From: an uncultured virus (IMG/VR IMGVR_UViG_3300025012_000008)
Taxonomy: Duplodnaviria > Heunggongvirae > Uroviricota > Caudoviricetes
Length of the DNA stretch: 64,000 nucleotides
Strand: one strand, 5' to 3'
IMG/VR virus record: IMGVR_UViG_3300025012_000008
Shown here: positions 21,529 to 26,604 of the stretch, piece by piece
Layout of the letters: each line of letters opens with the position of its first letter
How positions within the stretch are numbered: position 1 is the stretch's first letter
Made by a program: the position numbers and the translations under genes
Notes under the pieces: generated by a model
Told to the model about the DNA's origin: nothing
The model's database searches: none
What the model saw: the letters and a program-made list of their open reading frames with translations, nothing else

Positions 21529-22050
21529 TTATTTTAACATCTTCTCTATTTCGTGAACTGCTCTCCAGTATCGCGGCCATTTCCATGATAACGTTTCTCG
21601 GCAGTGTTCTTTTAAATCTCTTCTAATATCTCTTTTATTGCAAACAGCCGAGATAGGCCATTTAGTTCTTTTTGATTCTATTCCAATATTTTCAAAAACA
21701 CATTTAATAATAGTTTGAGCGTCTTTAGAGAGATATGATATTTCATCTTTGAATTCAACAATTTTACAAGGATCTTCTACCCCATCAATTCCAAGGGCTT
21801 CTTCAATTTCAATAAAGCAATTTGGGTGCGGGTGGATTTTATGATTATTTCCATTCATTTTTTGTAAAATAAGATTGTGATACAACCAAGTACAAAATTT
21901 TCCTTTTTTCGGATCATGAGTTTTACAGGCCTTTACAAAAGGTTCATGACCATCCCCGTTTAAAAAAGATTGTCTTCCAAGAATTTTACATATTAATCCT
22001 TGGAAGTCCTCATATTTTGGTTGTTTATCAGGAAATTTTGTTCTTTTCAT
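21529..22050 (-). CDS. sigma-factor-like transcription protein (divergent)
   Basis: FVKACKTHDPKKGKFCTWLY resembles sigma70 region 2; helical C-terminus. Confidence 0.45.
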   Translation of the reverse strand: MKRTKFPDKQPKYEDFQGLICKILGRQSFLNGDGHEPFVKACKTHDPKKGKFCTWLYHNLILQKMNGNNHKIHPHPNCFIEIEEALGIDGVEDPCKIVEFKDEISYLSKDAQTIIKCVFENIGIESKRTKWPISAVCNKRDIRRDLKEHCRETLSWKWPRYWRAVHEIEKMLK

Positions 22051-22229
22051 CTTTTTGCCCGTTTGAAAAGCCTTTTCAGGGTCAGACGTGTGGAGTCTGT
22101 TTTTGGATTGTAGATGATGCTTTCAATTCCCCAACTAGCGTATTTCGAGAGATAAAAATCACCAAGGGAAAAGAACCACTCCCAATTTCCTTCTATTTGG
22201 AAAATTTGTTTATATTGTGTTCTTTTCAT
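22047..22229 (-). CDS. hypothetical protein; start re-called at ATG 22229
   Basis: AAGGAG RBS before MKRTQY. Confidence 0.55.
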   Translation of the reverse strand: MKRTQYKQIFQIEGNWEWFFSLGDFYLSKYASWGIESIIYNPKTDSTRLTLKRLFKRAKR

Positions 22230-22248
22230 GATATTTCTCCTTTTAGTG

Positions 22249-22302
22249 TTAACCACTCAACTACCAGCCGGGAATTTCTCCCCGGCCTTGGTTCAGGGGT
22301 TA
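22249..22302 (-). repeat. structured intergenic repeat, copy 1
   Basis: TAACCCCTGAACCAAGGCCGGGGAGAAATTCCCGGCTGGTAGTTGAGTGGTTAA; near-identical to 23342-23397. Confidence 0.9.
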
Positions 22303-23097
22303 ATTCATCATTTGGATGACAAGGTGGATGGTTTTTACACATTTATCGTAATTAGTACATAGATTTTCATAAATGCGCGATTCGAGAATTTCAGGCCAAT
22401 CTTGAATAGTATGGAGTTTGCACCCAACCTGGATAAAATTGTTGTATGCTGTGATATGATATTCACAGGCATTTGCAATACATATAGGAGGTGAAACCAC
22501 CAGAGCATTTCCGTACACCTGAGCATTTCCGTACACCCGAGCATCTCCGGACACCCGAGCATTTCCTGACACCTGAGCATTTCCGAACACCTGAGCATTT
22601 CCGAACACCTGAGCATTTCCGAACACCTGAGCATTTCCGTACACCTGAGCATCTCCGTACACCTGAGCATTTCCGTACACCTGAGCATTTCCGTACACCC
22701 GAGCATCTCCGGACACCCGAGCATTTCCTGACACCTGAGCATTTCCGTACACCTGAGCATTTCCTGACACCTGAGCATTTCCGTACACCCGAGCATCTCC
22801 GTACACCCGAGCATTTCCGAACACCTGAGCATTTCCGAACACCCGAGCATCTCCGGATATCCAAGCATTTCCGTACACCCGAGCATCTCCGGACACCCGA
22901 GCATTTCCTGACACCTGAGCATTTCCGAACACCCGAGCATTTCCGGATATCCAAGCATATCCATTATGCGAAAGATTTTCTTCTTTTTCTATCAACCCTC
23001 CAAGATCACCAATTTTTATATCAAATTTAGAGATATTAACGAGGGCTTTAATTCTAAACATTCCATTTTCTTGCGGAATCATTTCATACTTTTTCAT
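22300..23097 (-). CDS. hexapeptide-repeat (G[ND]A[QRW]V) left-handed beta-helix protein
   Basis: About 25 copies of an 18-bp unit (22500-22960); FRIKAL...[15 protein letters not shown]-terminus; IQVGC C-terminus. Confidence 0.85.
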
Positions 23098-23108
23098 GAT
23101 GGTCTCCT

Positions 23109-23312
23109 TTAGTCTTTGTTGGTTATTAATTGCTGATATGCATCAGTTTCCGAAATGTGCTGAAATCCGGCAAGAATCTCAACCGCTTCAGAAACCATAC
23201 CGGAGATGAACAACTTTCTGCAATGATTGATTGTTCCTTTGAGCAAATCCTGATTGAAAGCAACTCGATGTTGATTTACTCGTGCTCTTTGTTCTGAAGT
23301 GAGTTCTAACAT
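23109..23312 (-). CDS. hypothetical protein
   Basis: GGAGG RBS; 67 aa. Confidence 0.65.
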   Translation of the reverse strand: MLELTSEQRARVNQHRVAFNQDLLKGTINHCRKLFISGMVSEAVEILAGFQHISETDAYQQLITNKD

Positions 23313-23341
23313 GGCTGACCTCCATTTGTTTGAGATTGCGC

Positions 23342-23397
23342 TTAACCACTCAACTACCAGCCGGGATATTTCTACCCCAGCCTTGGTTCAGGGGTTA
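23342..23397 (-). repeat. structured intergenic repeat, copy 2
   Basis: TAACCCCTGAACCAAGGCTGGGGTAGAAATATCCCGGCTGGTAGTTGAGTGGTTAA. Confidence 0.9.
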
Positions 23398-23583
23398 GGA
23401 TAAACTGATAAATTGGGAATCTTCTATTTTCATTGAAATAACTATTCCAAGATATACTTCTGCCGACCTTTCGTTTGCTTTTTTTTCATTAAACCAAACA
23501 CTGTCAACTTTTTTATTTGAACAGGGACACCCCGTTCTGCTTTCATCATCGGTCATAACAATAAATACGGTTTTCTTTTTCAT
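23395..23583 (-). CDS. hypothetical protein; start re-called at ATG 23583
   Basis: AGGAGG RBS before MKKKTVF. Confidence 0.6.
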   Translation of the reverse strand: MKKKTVFIVMTDDESRTGCPCSNKKVDSVWFNEKKANERSAEVYLGIVISMKIEDSQFISLS

Positions 23584-23636
23584 TTTATCCTCCTGCCCGG
23601 ATTCCGCCGGGCTCGGTTGCGATTGAATAAGAATAG

Positions 23637-23954
23637 TTAGCGATAAAAACACTTTTTGTTATTATTACCAATATTTTCCATTTCTTCAATTGATAAATTT
23701 GAAAAATATTGATGTTGTGGAGTCGCTCCGATACCAGGACTGTTTACATCAAAAGAACGATGGTTGTAGAAATATTTAATGATCTGATTTCTACAAGCAT
23801 CTGTAATTGCGGTTGCGCTATTTTCAAAGATATGAAGATATCCGTCTTTGTAATCTCTGGTATCTTCAATTACTTCAAAACCAGTTTCAGAAAAAGAAAC
23901 TAAACAATGTCCCCCAAAATAACTTGTTGCTCTTAGGATAGTAGTGGTTTCCAT
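23637..23954 (-). CDS. hypothetical protein, first gene of the leftward early transcript; start re-called at ATG 23954
   Basis: AGGAGA RBS 6 nt before METTTIL. Confidence 0.65.
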   Translation of the reverse strand: METTTILRATSYFGGHCLVSFSETGFEVIEDTRDYKDGYLHIFENSATAITDACRNQIIKYFYNHRSFDVNSPGIGATPQHQYFSNLSIEEMENIGNNNKKCFYR

Positions 23955-23971
23955 GGTCAATCTCCTAATTT

Positions 23972-24023
23972 AGTGTTTCGCCCTGAATGGGCTCGTCAGT
24001 CTGATCAAGCAATCAAAGACACT
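23972..24023 (-). ncRNA. type III hammerhead ribozyme
   Basis: Minus strand AGUGUC^UUUGAU-UGCUUG-AUCAGA-CUGACGA-GCCC-AUUCA-GGGC-GAA-ACACU. Core CUGANGA, GAAA and GUC are all present, and stems I, II and III pair. Confidence 0.9.
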
Positions 24024-24125
24024 GTTTTCGTCATCTGGTAGAGCGCTCTACAACAAGCAGACCATCTCCACCCTTCGGGTTCTCCATCAAGTTCCCCCTT
24101 TCCTCTCTTCTCCTCTATATACTTA

Positions 24126-24154
24126 ACTATAAGCCTTTTGTTGATGGAAGTAAA
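24126..24154 (-). promoter_or_regulatory. leftward early promoter
   Basis: TTTACT-N17-TATAGT with the GCT context, in the divergent intergenic region. Confidence 0.65.
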
Positions 24155-24275
24155 GAACTATTTAAAGAATTTAACGTTTTTAATATAAATAAATTTTGTA
24201 AAGCAATCAACAACTTAACTGCTTGATATAAAAAATAATTTTCCCTACAATCCCAACCACTTAAAAACCAGGGGC

Positions 24276-24304
24276 TTTTCTTTTCAGAAAATTCTCTTTA
24301 TAAT
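24276..24304 (+). promoter_or_regulatory. possible rightward promoter for the packaging/structural operon
   Basis: Perfect TATAAT at 24299-24304 with a weak -35 (TTTTCT) 17 bp upstream. Confidence 0.4.
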
Positions 24305-24343
24305 AAGTAGTATACATAAACCTATACTAAATTCAAACTAACC

Positions 24344-24940
24344 ATGAAACGAACTAAATACCCAACCAAACAATCCAAAAAAGAGAAGAAGCAAAGACGC
24401 CAACGAAATCTCTTGGGGATAGAACATAGCTACTTCGGGACAGAACTCTGGAGGGTATGTGACTGGAACGATGCAGGAAGGCCAAAGACATTTAACTCTC
24501 CAAACGAGATGATGGTGGCCTGCAACAACTACTTCCAATGGGTAGCAGAAAACAGCTTAATGGAAGAAAAGACAGTAGGACAGTACATGGGAGAAGTCTT
24601 AACACACAAGACACCTAGAATGAGAGCGATGACAATTAGGGGGTTATGTGTTTTCATCGGAATTACTACTACAGGGTGGGCTGAATACAGGAAAAGACCA
24701 GAATTTTCTTTAGTAGTGCAAAAAGTGGAAACAATCATATATGAGCAGAAATTTACAGGTGCCGCTGCTGGACTATTGAGGACCGATATCATCGCAAAAG
24801 AATTAGGATTGATAGATAGGCAGGATATCACCTCTGGAGATAGGGCAATAAATGGAACATCGGTTGAAGTTACAATTGATATGAACGTGAAAGAAGCAGA
24901 AATGGTATATAAACAGATGTTGAAAGAGGAACAGAATTAG
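24344..24940 (+). CDS. terS: terminase small subunit (P22 gp3-like)
   Basis: GRPKTFNSP, YFQW, RAMTIRGLCVFIGI, IYEQKFTGAAAG..IIAKELGL; directly upstream of TerL. Confidence 0.88.
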   Translation: MKRTKYPTKQSKKEKKQRRQRNLLGIEHSYFGTELWRVCDWNDAGRPKTFNSPNEMMVACNNYFQWVAENSLMEEKTVGQYMGEVLTHKTPRMRAMTIRGLCVFIGITTTGWAEYRKRPEFSLVVQKVETIIYEQKFTGAAAGLLRTDIIAKELGLIDRQDITSGDRAINGTSVEVTIDMNVKEAEMVYKQMLKEEQN

Positions 24941-24942
24941 TA

Positions 24943-26604
24943 ATGACAAGTATTGCTCCAAATATATGGCCACCTAATTACGTGGCTCAATTTGTTTCCC
25001 GATACAATAGGGTGAAACAAATGAAGGAGAATCCTGTTTTGATTGTTGGGGCAAAAGAATATTATTCACATCCTGAAAACTGGGTAGAGTTTATTGAACA
25101 TTGGATGGTTACGAGTGATCCAAGGAACAGAAAATATAAAGATAAACCAATCATTACTCCATTTATTTTATTTCCAAAACAAAAAGAATTTGTTCAATTT
25201 ATAATCGGGTGTTGGCTTGATGGCGAATCAGGATTGATTGAAAAAAGTAGGGATATGGGGGCAACATGGTTATCGTGTTGCATTTCGGTTTGTATGTGGC
25301 TGTTTGTTGAAGGATCTTCGATTGGTTGGGGATCAAGAGGGAGCGACCTTGTAGATAATATCGGCGATCCATCTTCGATATTTGAAAAAATGAGAATATT
25401 GATTAGATATTTACCAAAATTCTTTTTACCAATTGGTTTTTCAGAAAGAAACCATTCACACTCAATGAGGCTTGTCAATCCTGAGAATGGATCAACAATA
25501 ACCGGAGAGATTGGAGATAATATTGGTCGTGGGGGGAGAACATCAATTTATTTTAAAGATGAATCCGCACATTATCAACATCCAGAAATGATTGAAGCCG
25601 CTCTTGGGGATAATACTGATGTTCAAATTGATATGTCTTCCGTAAATGGAACTGCTAATGTTTTTGCTCGTAAGCGGTTTGCAGGAGAAGTTTGGTTGCC
25701 GGGAAAAAAAATTGAATCTGGAATGACTAGAGTATTTATTTTAGATTGGAGAGACCATCCAGAAAAAACCCAAGAATGGCATGATAAAAGATATGCGAAA
25801 TATGAAAGAGAGGGCTTATTACGTTTATTTTCCCAGGAGGTTTTAAGGGATTATTCAGCAGCTGTAGAGGGTATTCTCATCCCCGCGCAATGGGTACAGT
25901 CTGCTGTTGATCTCGACAAGAGATTTCCGAAATTTGCTGCTTTGATGAGACAGGGACAGATATTTTCTGGGTTGGATGTAGCTGATGAAGGTGGGGATCT
26001 TAATTCACAAGCAGATCGAAAGGGAATTACATTAATTGGTCTTGATAAGTGGGCGCAAGGAGATACGGGAGAAACAGCAAACAAAGCGGTAATGAGATGT
26101 AAAATAATAAGAGCATCCGAATTATTTTACGATTGTGTTGGGGTTGGTAGCGGAGTAAAAGCAGAAACAAATCGATTAAAAAGAGAAAATCTATTGCCAG
26201 CAAATTTGAAAATTACTCCTTGGAATGGGGGTGACTCTGTATTGAATCCTGATGGCCATTCTATTCCCGATGACAATGAAAGCCCTTTAAATAAAGATTT
26301 ATACAAGAATTTGAAAGCACAAGGATGGTGGAATTTAAGAACAAGATTTGAAAAGACATGGCGATTTGTTACAAAAGGAACACAATATCCTATGTCTGAA
26401 TTGATAAATATACCATCCGATATTTTACATTTCAACGAATTGATAGCAGAACTGAGTCAACCGACATATGGATCAACTACAGACGGGAAAATAATTGTAG
26501 ACAAGAAACCTGATGGAACAAGAAGTCCTAATTTAGCTGACTCTGTTAATATTGTATATTGGCCATGGACAGCAAATAAACAAGCAGGAGTATGGGGCAA
26601 ATGA
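24943..26604 (+). CDS. terL: terminase large subunit
   Basis: KSRDMGATW (Walker A), YFKDESAH (Walker B), GLDVADEGGD nuclease motif, SPNLADS. Confidence 0.92.
   Translation: MTSIAPNIWPPNYVAQFVSRYNRVKQMKENPVLIVGAKEYYSHPENWVEFIEHWMVTSDPRNRKYKDKPIITPFILFPKQKEFVQFIIGCWLDGESGLIEKSRDMGATWLSCCISVCMWLFVEGSSIGWGSRGSDLVDNIGDPSSIFEKMRILIRYLPKFFLPIGFSERNHSHSMRLVNPENGSTITGEIGDNIGRGGRTSIYFKDESAHYQHPEMIEAALGDNTDVQIDMSSVNGTANVFARKRFAGEVWLPGKKIESGMTRVFILDWRDHPEKTQEWHDKRYAKYEREGLLRLFSQEVLRDYSAAVEGILIPAQWVQSAVDLDKRFPKFAALMRQGQIFSGLDVADEGGDLNSQADRKGITLIGLDKWAQGDTGETANKAVMRCKIIRASELFYDCVGVGSGVKAETNRLKRENLLPANLKITPWNGGDSVLNPDGHSIPDDNESPLNKDLYKNLKAQGWWNLRTRFEKTWRFVTKGTQYPMSELINIPSDILHFNELIAELSQPTYGSTTDGKIIVDKKPDGTRSPNLADSVNIVYWPWTANKQAGVWGK

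What the first reader, a model, noticed from the sequence alone, without database searches (positions are those of the whole stretch)
23972..24023. Complete type III hammerhead ribozyme in the 5' leader of the first early transcript
Seen on the sense (minus) strand: stem III AGUGU/ACACU, GUC cleavage triplet, stem I UUUGAU/AUCAGA, core CUGACGA, stem II GCCC/GGGC, then GAAA. It lies about 100 nt downstream of the promoter at 24126-24154 and ends 5 nt before the AGGAGA RBS of the first gene. Predicted cut is between 24018 and 24017. Known: hammerheads leave 5'-OH and 2',3'-cyclic phosphate ends, and 5'-OH RNAs are poor substrates for 5'-monophosphate-dependent decay. Inference: self-cleavage stabilises or activates the early mRNA and releases a discrete leader RNA.
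Basis: partly seen in the sequence, partly recalled or inferred. Interest (0 to 1): 0.82.

Follow-up and report, generated by a model that had tools for sequence, protein, structure and literature searches.

The report
Hammerhead ribozyme before phage early genes
A textbook self-cutting hammerhead RNA sits between the promoter and the ribosome-binding site of a phage's early operon; this kind of placement has been described in other phages, so it is a real but fairly ordinary new example.

Summary
Window 23972-24023 (minus strand) holds a complete type III hammerhead. Its core is CUGACGA...GAA, with the A15.1-U16.1 pair and a GUC cleavage triplet. Stems I, II and III have 7, 4 and 5 pairs, and the cut falls between 24018 and 24017. 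Rfam RF00008 scores it 40.0 bits, below the gathering score of 48.5, with whole-window E = 3.4e-5. A strict descriptor hit 0 of 1000 shuffles.

The window is an uncultured tailed phage. The ribozyme lies downstream of a promoter-like site and about 100 nt of purine-rich leader. It ends 5 nt before the AGGAGA of the first gene of the replication-gene operon, which runs divergently from terS.

The block of promoter position, leader, hammerhead and SD recurs in 10 IMG/VR contigs of three lineages. These otherwise share little DNA, and seven unrelated ORFan first genes follow it.

The most likely role is constitutive 5'-UTR processing. That would resemble the synthetic RiboJ insulator and the hammerhead before the first early ORF of haloviruses HF1/HF2 (PMC3088659). 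Stabilisation, activation and a function for the leader are untested, and RBS unmasking is not predicted.

Earlier notes of this scan describe similar arrangements on other DNA. Verdict: a new member of a known kind.

The parts
24126..24154 (-). Promoter-like site TTTACT-17-TATAGT. The transcription start is inferred near 24119.
   Evidence: Found by the consensus scan, 9 of 12 matches. Alone it is not above chance. Lineage B has TTGACA-17-TATTAT in the same aligned columns. Lineage C has TTTACA-17-TACTAT at a similar distance (read).
24024..24119 (-). Purine-rich (about 69% A+G) 5' leader that cleavage would release with a 2',3'-cyclic phosphate end.
   Evidence: About 82% identical between lineages A and B, while the flanks are unalignable. 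Composition. No Rfam family at E<=10.
24037..24072 (-). Leader hairpin just upstream of the ribozyme.
   Evidence: The RNAalifold consensus shows 2 pairs with compensatory change in 5 sequences. With 7 sequences, 4 leader pairs show compensatory change, counting the short helix 24077-24079/24095-24097.
23972..24023 (-). Type III hammerhead ribozyme. The predicted cut is between 24018 (C17) and 24017.
   Evidence: Sequence. RF00008 40.0 bits, E 3.4e-5. RNAalifold recovers the three-way junction unaided. 0 of 1000 shuffles hit. Conserved in 10 IMG/VR contigs.
23961..23966 (-). Shine-Dalgarno AGGAGA, 5 nt after the ribozyme. The spacer GAUUGACC up to the AUG is also conserved.
   Evidence: The conserved island ends at the start codon.
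23637..23954 (-). First gene of the operon: a 105-aa ORFan.
   Evidence: No Pfam or PHROG hit. Nothing usable in the Atlas. Six other unrelated small ORFans take its place in relatives.
23588..23619 (-). Second conserved junction element: hairpin GCCCGG-CGGAAU-CCGGGC directly followed by the SD AGGAGGA of gene 2 (ATG 23583).
   Evidence: 92-97% identical between lineages that otherwise do not align, and present twice in L054/L056. Found only in the same phages: 8 stretches in 6 contigs.

Best explanation
This is a genuine self-cleaving type III hammerhead built into the 5' UTR of the phage's replication-gene (presumably early) operon.

Proposed mechanism:
1. RNA polymerase starts near 24119 and transcribes a roughly 100-nt purine-rich, hairpin-containing leader, then the ribozyme.
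2. The ribozyme folds and cuts after C24018.
3. The leader leaves with a 2',3'-cyclic phosphate.
4. The polycistronic mRNA starts at U24017 with a 5'-OH whose first nucleotide is already paired in stem I. The folded ribozyme body therefore sits 5 nt before the SD.

The likely effect is that every mRNA gets the same structured 5' end next to the RBS, whatever lies upstream and whichever gene follows. That would be a natural counterpart of the synthetic RiboJ insulator. The most probable net result is protection from 5'-end-dependent decay and uniform translation of the variable first gene.

Shown here: the motif, its position, and its conservation as a portable block. Inferred: cleavage itself, the timing, and the direction of the effect on stability.
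For: - The core is canonical at every position. RF00008 aligns full length with E = 3.4e-5 in the window. 0 of 1000 strict shuffles hit.
- RNAalifold on 5 and on 7 homologous leaders returns the hammerhead junction as the consensus fold.
- The motif is nearly invariant (96% mean column identity). Lineages A and B share only this 157-nt island plus one 40-nt element within +/-6 kb.
- All three changes in stem I keep pairing. One pair is seen as U-G, U-A and C-G.
- The architecture of divergent terS, promoter, leader, hammerhead and SD recurs in lineage C, which has a terL of another PHROG family.
- Seven mutually unrelated ORFans follow the block.
- Lineage B carries a second hammerhead in the same operon: type II, RF02276, 44.5 bits, above the gathering score of 37. 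It also lies just before an SD.
- I classified 85 cores from 80 fetched loci, out of at least 123 IMG/VR stretches sharing this stem II. Among them, 23 of 27 type III hammerheads outside this family have an ORF start within 30 nt downstream. The rate at random positions was 350 of 1700.
- Precedents: the HF1/HF2 hammerhead lies 13 nt before the first early ORF, and the transcript 5' end was mapped within 3 nt of the cut (PMC3088659 passages). RiboJ raises transcript abundance about 2-fold and protein 2-10-fold (PMC6206723 abstract).
Against: - The Rfam score is below gathering in the window and in all 7 relatives scored (37.7-43.5 bits).
- The family is too conserved to give covariation. No hammerhead pair changes on both sides, and the counts are no better than shuffles (404 of 500).
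- One lineage has A6->G in the core (CUGGCGA). It is found in 2 of 10 IMG/VR contigs and in 3 of 9 metagenome stretches, probably the source records of the same phages. By the mutational data quoted in PMC3088659 this should cut slowly or not at all, yet the block is otherwise kept.
- Nearest-neighbour thermodynamics place the active fold about 1 kcal/mol above the MFE, with P(fold) 0.004-0.08. The main competitor in the isolated ribozyme pairs the GUC with GAC of the core. Tertiary contacts are not modelled.
- Cleavage does not raise predicted SD accessibility in any of 7 variants.
- A 5'-OH is destabilising for the glmS product in B. subtilis (PMC3328962), and the host is unknown.
- There are no expression data.
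Confidence: 0.55

Rival explanations
1. The leader is the product. The ribozyme mainly makes the 3' end of a roughly 100-nt purine-rich structured phage RNA that acts on its own, in trans or as a protein or ribosome decoy. The mRNA 5' end is a by-product.
For: The leader is about 82% conserved between lineages A and B, where the flanks do not align. Its hairpin keeps pairing through compensatory changes, 4 leader pairs in 7 sequences. Lineage C has a different leader sequence but again a hairpin and about 70% purines.
Against: No Rfam family matches. No complementary target in the window beyond chance: one 12-mer, with about 0.7 expected by my own arithmetic. The GGA count (5-6 per leader) is explained by composition, with shuffle P of 0.12-0.48. 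Only three lineages are available, so the covariation rests on few events. The hairpin could simply keep upstream RNA from interfering with ribozyme folding.
Confidence: 0.2
2. Cleavage lowers or gates early-gene expression rather than raising it. In a host with RNase J1-type 5'-exonuclease the 5'-OH product would be degraded, as for glmS. Alternatively, cleavage could be modulated by ionic conditions or a factor.
For: The glmS precedent (PMC3328962 passage). Perreault et al. propose regulated or slow variants in phages (PMC3088659 passages). The active fold is not the predicted MFE. The A6G variant suggests that fast cleavage is not always required. DnaD-like loader hits, and helicase matches almost all in Bacillus and Lysinibacillus phages (31 of 32 records), hint weakly at a Bacillota-like host.
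Against: The consensus fold of the alignment is the active hammerhead, with no conserved alternative pairing. After the cut the 5' nucleotide is base-paired in stem I with no overhang. From recalled knowledge, that geometry blocks 5'-end-dependent nucleases. No aptamer-like family was found.
Confidence: 0.12
3. The block is kept mainly as a recombination linker or DNA-level signal at the junction of the packaging and early modules. On this view the hammerhead is a relic that no longer needs to cut.
For: Homology breaks exactly at the start codon. The variable genes are bracketed by short conserved elements: the hammerhead-SD, the hairpin-SD, and the type II hammerhead-SD. One lineage has the A6G core change.
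Against: Apart from the A6G lineage, every catalytic position is intact in all variants, while the loops and flanks vary. A relic would decay in the core first. Hammerheads just upstream of ORF starts are a general pattern in phage contigs.
Confidence: 0.08
4. Chance resemblance to the hammerhead consensus.
For: The Rfam score is under gathering. A lenient descriptor hits 7 of 200 shuffles.
Against: 0 of 1000 strict shuffles hit. E = 3.4e-5. The motif is conserved across lineages with unrelated flanks.
Confidence: 0.01

Closest known systems
Type III hammerhead ribozyme (Rfam RF00008, clan CL00010)
   Same: Three-way junction with stems I and II capped and stem III open. Full consensus core and a GUC site. 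Full-length alignment to the model.
   Different: Scores 40.0 bits against a gathering score of 48.5. Loop II is short (5 nt). No loop-loop contact could be assessed.
HHphage of haloviruses HF1/HF2 (Perreault et al. 2011, PMC3088659; passages read)
   Same: A hammerhead a few nucleotides upstream of the first ORF of the early polycistronic transcript of a tailed virus. Here it ends 17 nt before the AUG, there 13 nt. In HF2 the mapped transcript 5' end lies within 3 nt of the cut.
   Different: HHphage is described there as a variant structurally analogous to HHmeta, which needs high Mg2+ for activity in vitro, and its hosts are archaeal halophiles. This one has the canonical core, a bacterial-type promoter and SD, and a conserved leader upstream.
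Hammerheads flanking genes in prophages, such as the triple arrangement around ardA in Agrobacterium tumefaciens (PMC3088659)
   Same: Ribozymes sit directly in front of variable phage genes. Lineage B relatives carry two hammerheads (type III and type II) in one operon.
   Different: Here the first ribozyme follows a promoter and leader rather than an upstream gene. The window itself has only one hammerhead.
RiboJ synthetic ribozyme insulator (PMC7536230 passages; PMC6206723 abstract)
   Same: A hammerhead placed between promoter and RBS that removes the promoter-derived 5' UTR and leaves the ribozyme body on the mRNA.
   Different: RiboJ is engineered and carries an added 23-nt hairpin. From recall, that hairpin lies downstream of the ribozyme and the ribozyme derives from a plant satellite RNA. 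The phage element is natural, has its extra hairpin upstream in the leader, and has 5 nt to the SD.
glmS ribozyme leader
   Same: A self-cleaving RNA in a 5' UTR whose cut leaves a 5'-OH mRNA (PMC3328962).
   Different: Unrelated fold, metabolite-dependent, and it destabilises the mRNA through RNase J1. No ligand-binding part is evident here.

Membership tests
Hammerhead ribozyme, type III | Three helices around the core, with stems I and II closed by loops and stem III open to the flanks. | tested here: met
   Stems of 7, 4 and 5 pairs. RNAalifold recovers them. 97.6% of cells are paired in 5 variants.
Hammerhead ribozyme, type III | Conserved core C3 U4 G5 A6 N7 G8 A9 and G12 A13 A14 (consensus recalled and as in the Rfam model). 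| tested here: met
   CUGACGA 23999-23993 and GAA 23979-23977. One related lineage has G at position 6.
Hammerhead ribozyme, type III | A15.1-U16.1 pair, a non-G nucleotide at position 17, and a G10.1-C11.1 pair. | tested here: met
   A23976-U24019, C24018, G23992-C23980.
Hammerhead ribozyme, type III | Covariance-model score at or above Rfam's gathering score (48.5 bits). | tested here: not met
   40.0 bits in the window. 37.7-43.5 bits in 7 relatives. The E-values are nevertheless small: 3.4e-5 for the window against all families.
Hammerhead ribozyme, type III | Compensatory base changes in the stems among homologues. | tested here: inconclusive
   0 pairs changed on both sides. 3 one-sided changes all keep pairing. 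Not above the shuffle control, 404 of 500. The family is 96% identical.
Hammerhead ribozyme, type III | Loop I-loop II tertiary contact that gives fast cleavage at low Mg2+. | not testable with these tools
   Loop II is AUUCA (AUCCA in lineage C) and nearly fixed. Loop I varies (GCUU, GUUU, UGUA).
Hammerhead ribozyme, type III | Mg2+-dependent self-cleavage giving 2',3'-cyclic phosphate and 5'-OH ends. | not testable with these tools
   No RNA run holds the stretch.
5'-UTR ribozyme insulator (works like RiboJ) | A ribozyme between the transcription start and the RBS, so that the cut removes the upstream UTR. | tested here: met
   Promoter-like site 24154-24126, ribozyme 24023-23972, SD 23966-23961. 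The transcription start itself is inferred.
5'-UTR ribozyme insulator (works like RiboJ) | Expression of the downstream gene made independent of upstream context, or raised by cleavage. | not testable with these tools
   The only indirect evidence is that the same block precedes 7 unrelated genes. Predicted SD accessibility is not raised by the cut.

The most novel reading that the evidence does not exclude
The early operon of these phages may be built from portable RNA junction cassettes, each fused to an SD: leader plus type III hammerhead, a GC hairpin, and in lineage B a type II hammerhead. On this reading the cassettes do two jobs. They cut or shape the polycistronic RNA into uniformly expressed single-gene messages. 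They also serve as the homologous linkers through which hypervariable ORFan early genes (candidates for host takeover or anti-defence) are swapped between phages. In addition, the conserved purine-rich leader released by the hammerhead would be a trans-acting phage RNA in its own right.
Probability: 0.15. Interest if true: 0.6.

Novelty: new member of a known kind. Interest (0 to 1): 0.33.

Why it matters
What bacterial and phage hammerheads do is still an open question (review PMC6765202, passages). This locus does not change what is known, but it is a clean case for testing the question.

- The core is canonical.
- The promoter, leader, ribozyme and RBS are laid out within 200 nt.
- Natural variants are available: an A6G core variant, a different leader, and a possible stem I insertion.
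- Seven different downstream genes follow the block.

A reporter test of the wild type against a core mutant in two model hosts would show whether natural 5'-UTR hammerheads act as stabilising insulators, as the engineered RiboJ does. It would also show whether the released leader persists.

Tried and rejected
- The Rfam gathering scan of the window listed nothing. The hit appears only with E-value thresholds.
- The window's own assembly is not held. The nearest virus record, G001, is a 66%-complete fragment and gave no match to the 551-nt region.
- megablast of 22000-26000 against cultured phages gave no match.
- A terL search in genome contigs found no relative, so no prophage or host was obtained.
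- The best terL match in cultured phages is 52% (Rhizobium phages). Their terS region has a different gene layout. The host remains unknown.
- Of 40 terS-relative loci, 37 (identity <=49%) have no type III hammerhead by my descriptor. The element does not track the terminase.
- No RNA holder was listed for the stretch. One run labelled RNA-Seq, which the tool marks 'probably DNA', holds 23961-24021 as a contig. That says nothing on expression.
- Leader ORF idea: the window has an AUG-started 18-codon frame in the leader. Its close relative L057 lacks that AUG (read), so I rejected it.
- GGA-motif (CsrA-sponge-like) idea: the counts are explained by composition.
- Antisense-target idea: only one 12-mer complement in the window, at about the chance level.
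- The boxA-like CGCUCU in the lineage A leader (a recalled resemblance to lambda boxA) is not kept in lineage B.
- RBS unmasking by cleavage is not predicted.
- First-gene function: no Pfam, PHROG or Atlas lead.
- Loci L200, L205 and L207 lie in records that are not held, so lineage C context came from L211 instead.

Full report
**1. The observation**

Read on the minus strand, window 24023-23972 is AGUGUC-UUUGAUUGCUUGAUCAGA-CUGACGA-GCCCAUUCAGGGC-GAAACACU.
- Stem III has 5 pairs (24023-24019 with 23976-23972).
- The GUC triplet has C17 at 24018.
- Stem I has 7 pairs counting two U-G pairs, with loop GCUU.
- The core is CUGACGA (23999-23993).
- Stem II is GCCC/GGGC with loop AUUCA.
- GAA follows, then the A15.1-U16.1 pair.
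- Five nucleotides (AAAUU) separate the motif from AGGAGA (23966-23961). The ATG is at 23954.

Rfam's Hammerhead_3 model aligns over its full length at 23970-24025(-). It scores 40.0 bits, with E = 1.1e-7 in a 201-nt search and 3.4e-5 in a search of the whole window against all 4227 families. That is under Rfam's gathering score of 48.5, which is why the default scan listed nothing.

A descriptor of my own found one hit in the window. In lenient form it found hits in 7 of 200 dinucleotide shuffles. At the stringency of the real motif it found hits in 0 of 1000.

**2. Surroundings**

The window is a tailed-phage genome of 37% G+C.
- On the plus strand from 24344 lie terS, terL, portal and head genes.
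- On the minus strand from 23954 downwards lie small ORFans, a beta-solenoid repeat protein, an SNF2 helicase, a primase, an HNH protein, and DnaD/O-like, DnaC-like and DnaB-like proteins.

The ribozyme therefore lies in the 390-nt divergent intergenic region, on the sense strand of the replication module, in front of its first gene.

A promoter-like TTTACT-17-TATAGT lies at 24154-24126. By itself it is not above chance in this A+T-rich stretch (5 sites against 3.5 expected). Calling the operon 'early' is an inference from gene content. The DNA occurs in groundwater metagenome runs, and no RNA run holds it.

**3. Relatives**

The exact ribozyme 3' half occurs in 7 IMG/VR contigs. A leader pattern adds 2 more, plus one chance hit in a coding region. 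A relaxed core pattern adds 1 more (L123). A metagenome scan returned only contigs carrying these same lineages and ribozyme variants, probably their source records.

There are three lineages:
- A: the window and the 68-kb, CheckV-complete record G004.
- B: L053-L056, with the sub-lineage L061/L065.
- C: L123/L211.

Pairwise blastn over +/-6 kb shows how little lineages A and B share near the element. They share a 157-nt island running from about 83 nt upstream of the ribozyme to the start codon (about 82% identity). They share a 40-nt element before gene 2. Beyond that, there is only a weak (about 65% identical) stretch some 4 kb upstream and a few short matches.

In the alignment, lineage B has TTGACA-17-TATTAT in the same columns as the window's promoter-like site. 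Lineage C has TTTACA-17-TACTAT about 115 nt before its ribozyme (read). It is again divergent from a terS and from a terL of a different PHROG family.

Downstream of the block come seven different small ORFs (46-105 aa). They have no mutual similarity (best blastp E = 1.2) and no Pfam or PHROG match.

Of the 40 loci with terS relatives, only the 3 close ones carry the ribozyme.

**4. Structure evidence**

RNAalifold returns the hammerhead junction as the consensus fold when given the leaders from the inferred start to the SD, for 5 and then 7 sequences. It also returns a leader hairpin (window 24037-24072) with compensatory changes.

Within the ribozyme the family is too uniform for covariation. 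Mean column identity is 96% and no pair changes on both sides. Three one-sided changes all keep pairing, and one pair appears as U-G, U-A and C-G. The counts are not better than shuffles.

The nearest-neighbour model puts the active fold about 1 kcal/mol above the MFE, with P = 0.004-0.08. In the isolated ribozyme, the main competitor pairs the GUC triplet with GAC of the core. Tertiary energies are not modelled, so I treat this as inconclusive.

One sub-lineage (L061/L065) has CUGGCGA, meaning G at core position 6. It still scores 38.2 bits. Perreault et al. report slow cleavage for an A6C variant of phage Bcep176 (passage).

**5. Wider context**

DNA was fetched for 80 loci, which held 85 cores. 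My classifier of them type I, 29 type III and 1 neither.

Excluding this family, 23 of 27 type III elements have an ORF start within 30 nt downstream. At random positions in the same loci the figure is 350 of 1700. ORF starts here include GTG and TTG extensions, so the distances are approximate.

A hammerhead immediately before a phage RBS or start codon is therefore common. Lineage B itself carries a second hammerhead about 540 nt downstream in the same operon. It is type II and scores 44.5 bits on RF02276, above that family's gathering score of 37. It too lies just before an SD.

**6. Literature**

- Perreault et al. 2011 (PMC3088659; passages read, figures and supplements not seen). They describe hundreds of bacterial hammerheads, many near prophage genes, and multiple ribozymes flanking single genes. 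They propose that long phage transcripts are processed into shorter mRNAs. They also describe a variant hammerhead 13 nt upstream of the first ORF of the early polycistronic transcript of haloviruses HF1/HF2. The mapped 5' end of that transcript lies within 3 nt of the cut.
- The 2019 review PMC6765202 (passages) states that the purpose of these bacterial and phage ribozymes remains to be defined.
- RiboJ is a hammerhead plus hairpin used to normalise 5' UTRs (PMC7536230 passages). It raises transcript abundance about 2-fold and protein 2-10-fold (PMC6206723 abstract).
- As a counter-example, the 5'-OH product of glmS is degraded by RNase J1 in B. subtilis (PMC3328962 passage).
- From recall, not from any call: RNase E prefers 5'-monophosphate ends, and 5'-terminal hairpins protect mRNAs.

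**7. Mechanism**

I commit to constitutive co-transcriptional self-cleavage that defines the mRNA 5' end. The message would begin at U24017 with a 5'-OH. That nucleotide is already paired in stem I, so there is no single-stranded 5' tail. The ribozyme body lies 5 nt before the SD.

Two observations fit an insulating, expression-standardising role like RiboJ: the whole block is kept while the downstream gene is replaced, and homology ends at the start codon.

Against simple 'activation', predicted SD accessibility is the same or lower after the cut in 7 of 7 variants.

Rivals:
- The conserved leader is the functional product.
- Cleavage destabilises or is regulated.
- The block is a recombination linker carrying a relic ribozyme.

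None of these is excluded, and their tests are listed under next steps.

**8. Earlier notes of this scan**

These are unchecked leads, not support. A word search found 210 notes, in at least 184 genomes, holding the words hammerhead, ribozyme and leader. One of them, e1-6258796, describes a folded leader cut from the early operon of another phage by a hammerhead. Nothing was on record for this genome or this sequence.

**9. Verdict**

This is a real, canonical type III hammerhead in a conserved promoter-leader-ribozyme-SD block at the head of a phage replication operon. It is a new member of a known kind. Its function is inferred and untested. Interest is modest. Its main value is as a compact test case, with side observations on junction cassettes around hypervariable early genes.

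Noticed in passing
window 23588-23619 (-); also L054 and L056 (two copies each), L053, L055, L057: A GC hairpin (GCCCGG / CCGGGC) fused to an AGGAGGA SD precedes gene 2. It is 92-97% identical between lineages that otherwise do not align. It occurs only in these phages (8 stretches in 6 contigs). It shares the 7-mer CGAGCCC and the GGGC with the hammerhead's stem II region. Its role is unknown; a processing site, a protective hairpin or a translational operator are possibilities.
   Followed up: partly
L053 5619-5682 (-); same element in L054 and L055: Lineage B relatives carry a second hammerhead in the same operon: type II, RF02276, 44.5 bits, above the gathering score of 37. It lies about 540 nt after the type III one and just before another SD. 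The window has no counterpart.
   Followed up: partly
window 24024-24119 (-), hairpin 24037-24072: The leader is about 69% purine and conserved between lineages, with a hairpin kept through compensatory changes. Lineage C has a different leader sequence with the same traits. No Rfam family and no target were found.
   Followed up: partly
L061 108-163 (-), L065 575-630 (+); L205, L206, L208: A natural variant has G instead of A at core position 6 (CUGGCGA) and a U-G to C-G change in stem I. The block is otherwise intact. It is a candidate slow or inactive ribozyme.
   Followed up: no
window 24005-24011, run X5: Two soil-metagenome contigs match either side of the stem I loop and diverge exactly there. 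Their loose ends contain a perfect 13-nt inverted repeat. This suggests a relative with a long insertion that extends stem I. The contigs are not joined, so this is unverified.
   Followed up: no
IMG/VR loci L068-L147: At least 123 phage contig stretches carry a hammerhead core with the same GCCC/GGGC stem II. Several contigs have two copies 300-620 nt apart. 23 of 27 type III copies outside this family have an ORF start within 30 nt downstream.
   Followed up: partly
window 23637-23954 (-) and the equivalent position in relatives: The gene directly behind the ribozyme is a different small ORFan (46-105 aa) in each of 7 variants. Such hypervariable first genes are candidates for host-takeover or anti-defence functions. 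No family was found for any of them.
   Followed up: partly
window 22300-23097 (-): A 265-aa protein made of YdcK-type beta-solenoid repeats (also a bactofilin-like hit) lies in the early operon. Its DNA aligns to the relative's copy in many shifted registers, 18 nt or multiples of it apart.
   Followed up: no
window 24223-24251 (+): A promoter-like site, TTGATA-17-TACAAT (10 of 12), faces terS. It is the likely divergent partner of the leftward promoter.
   Followed up: no
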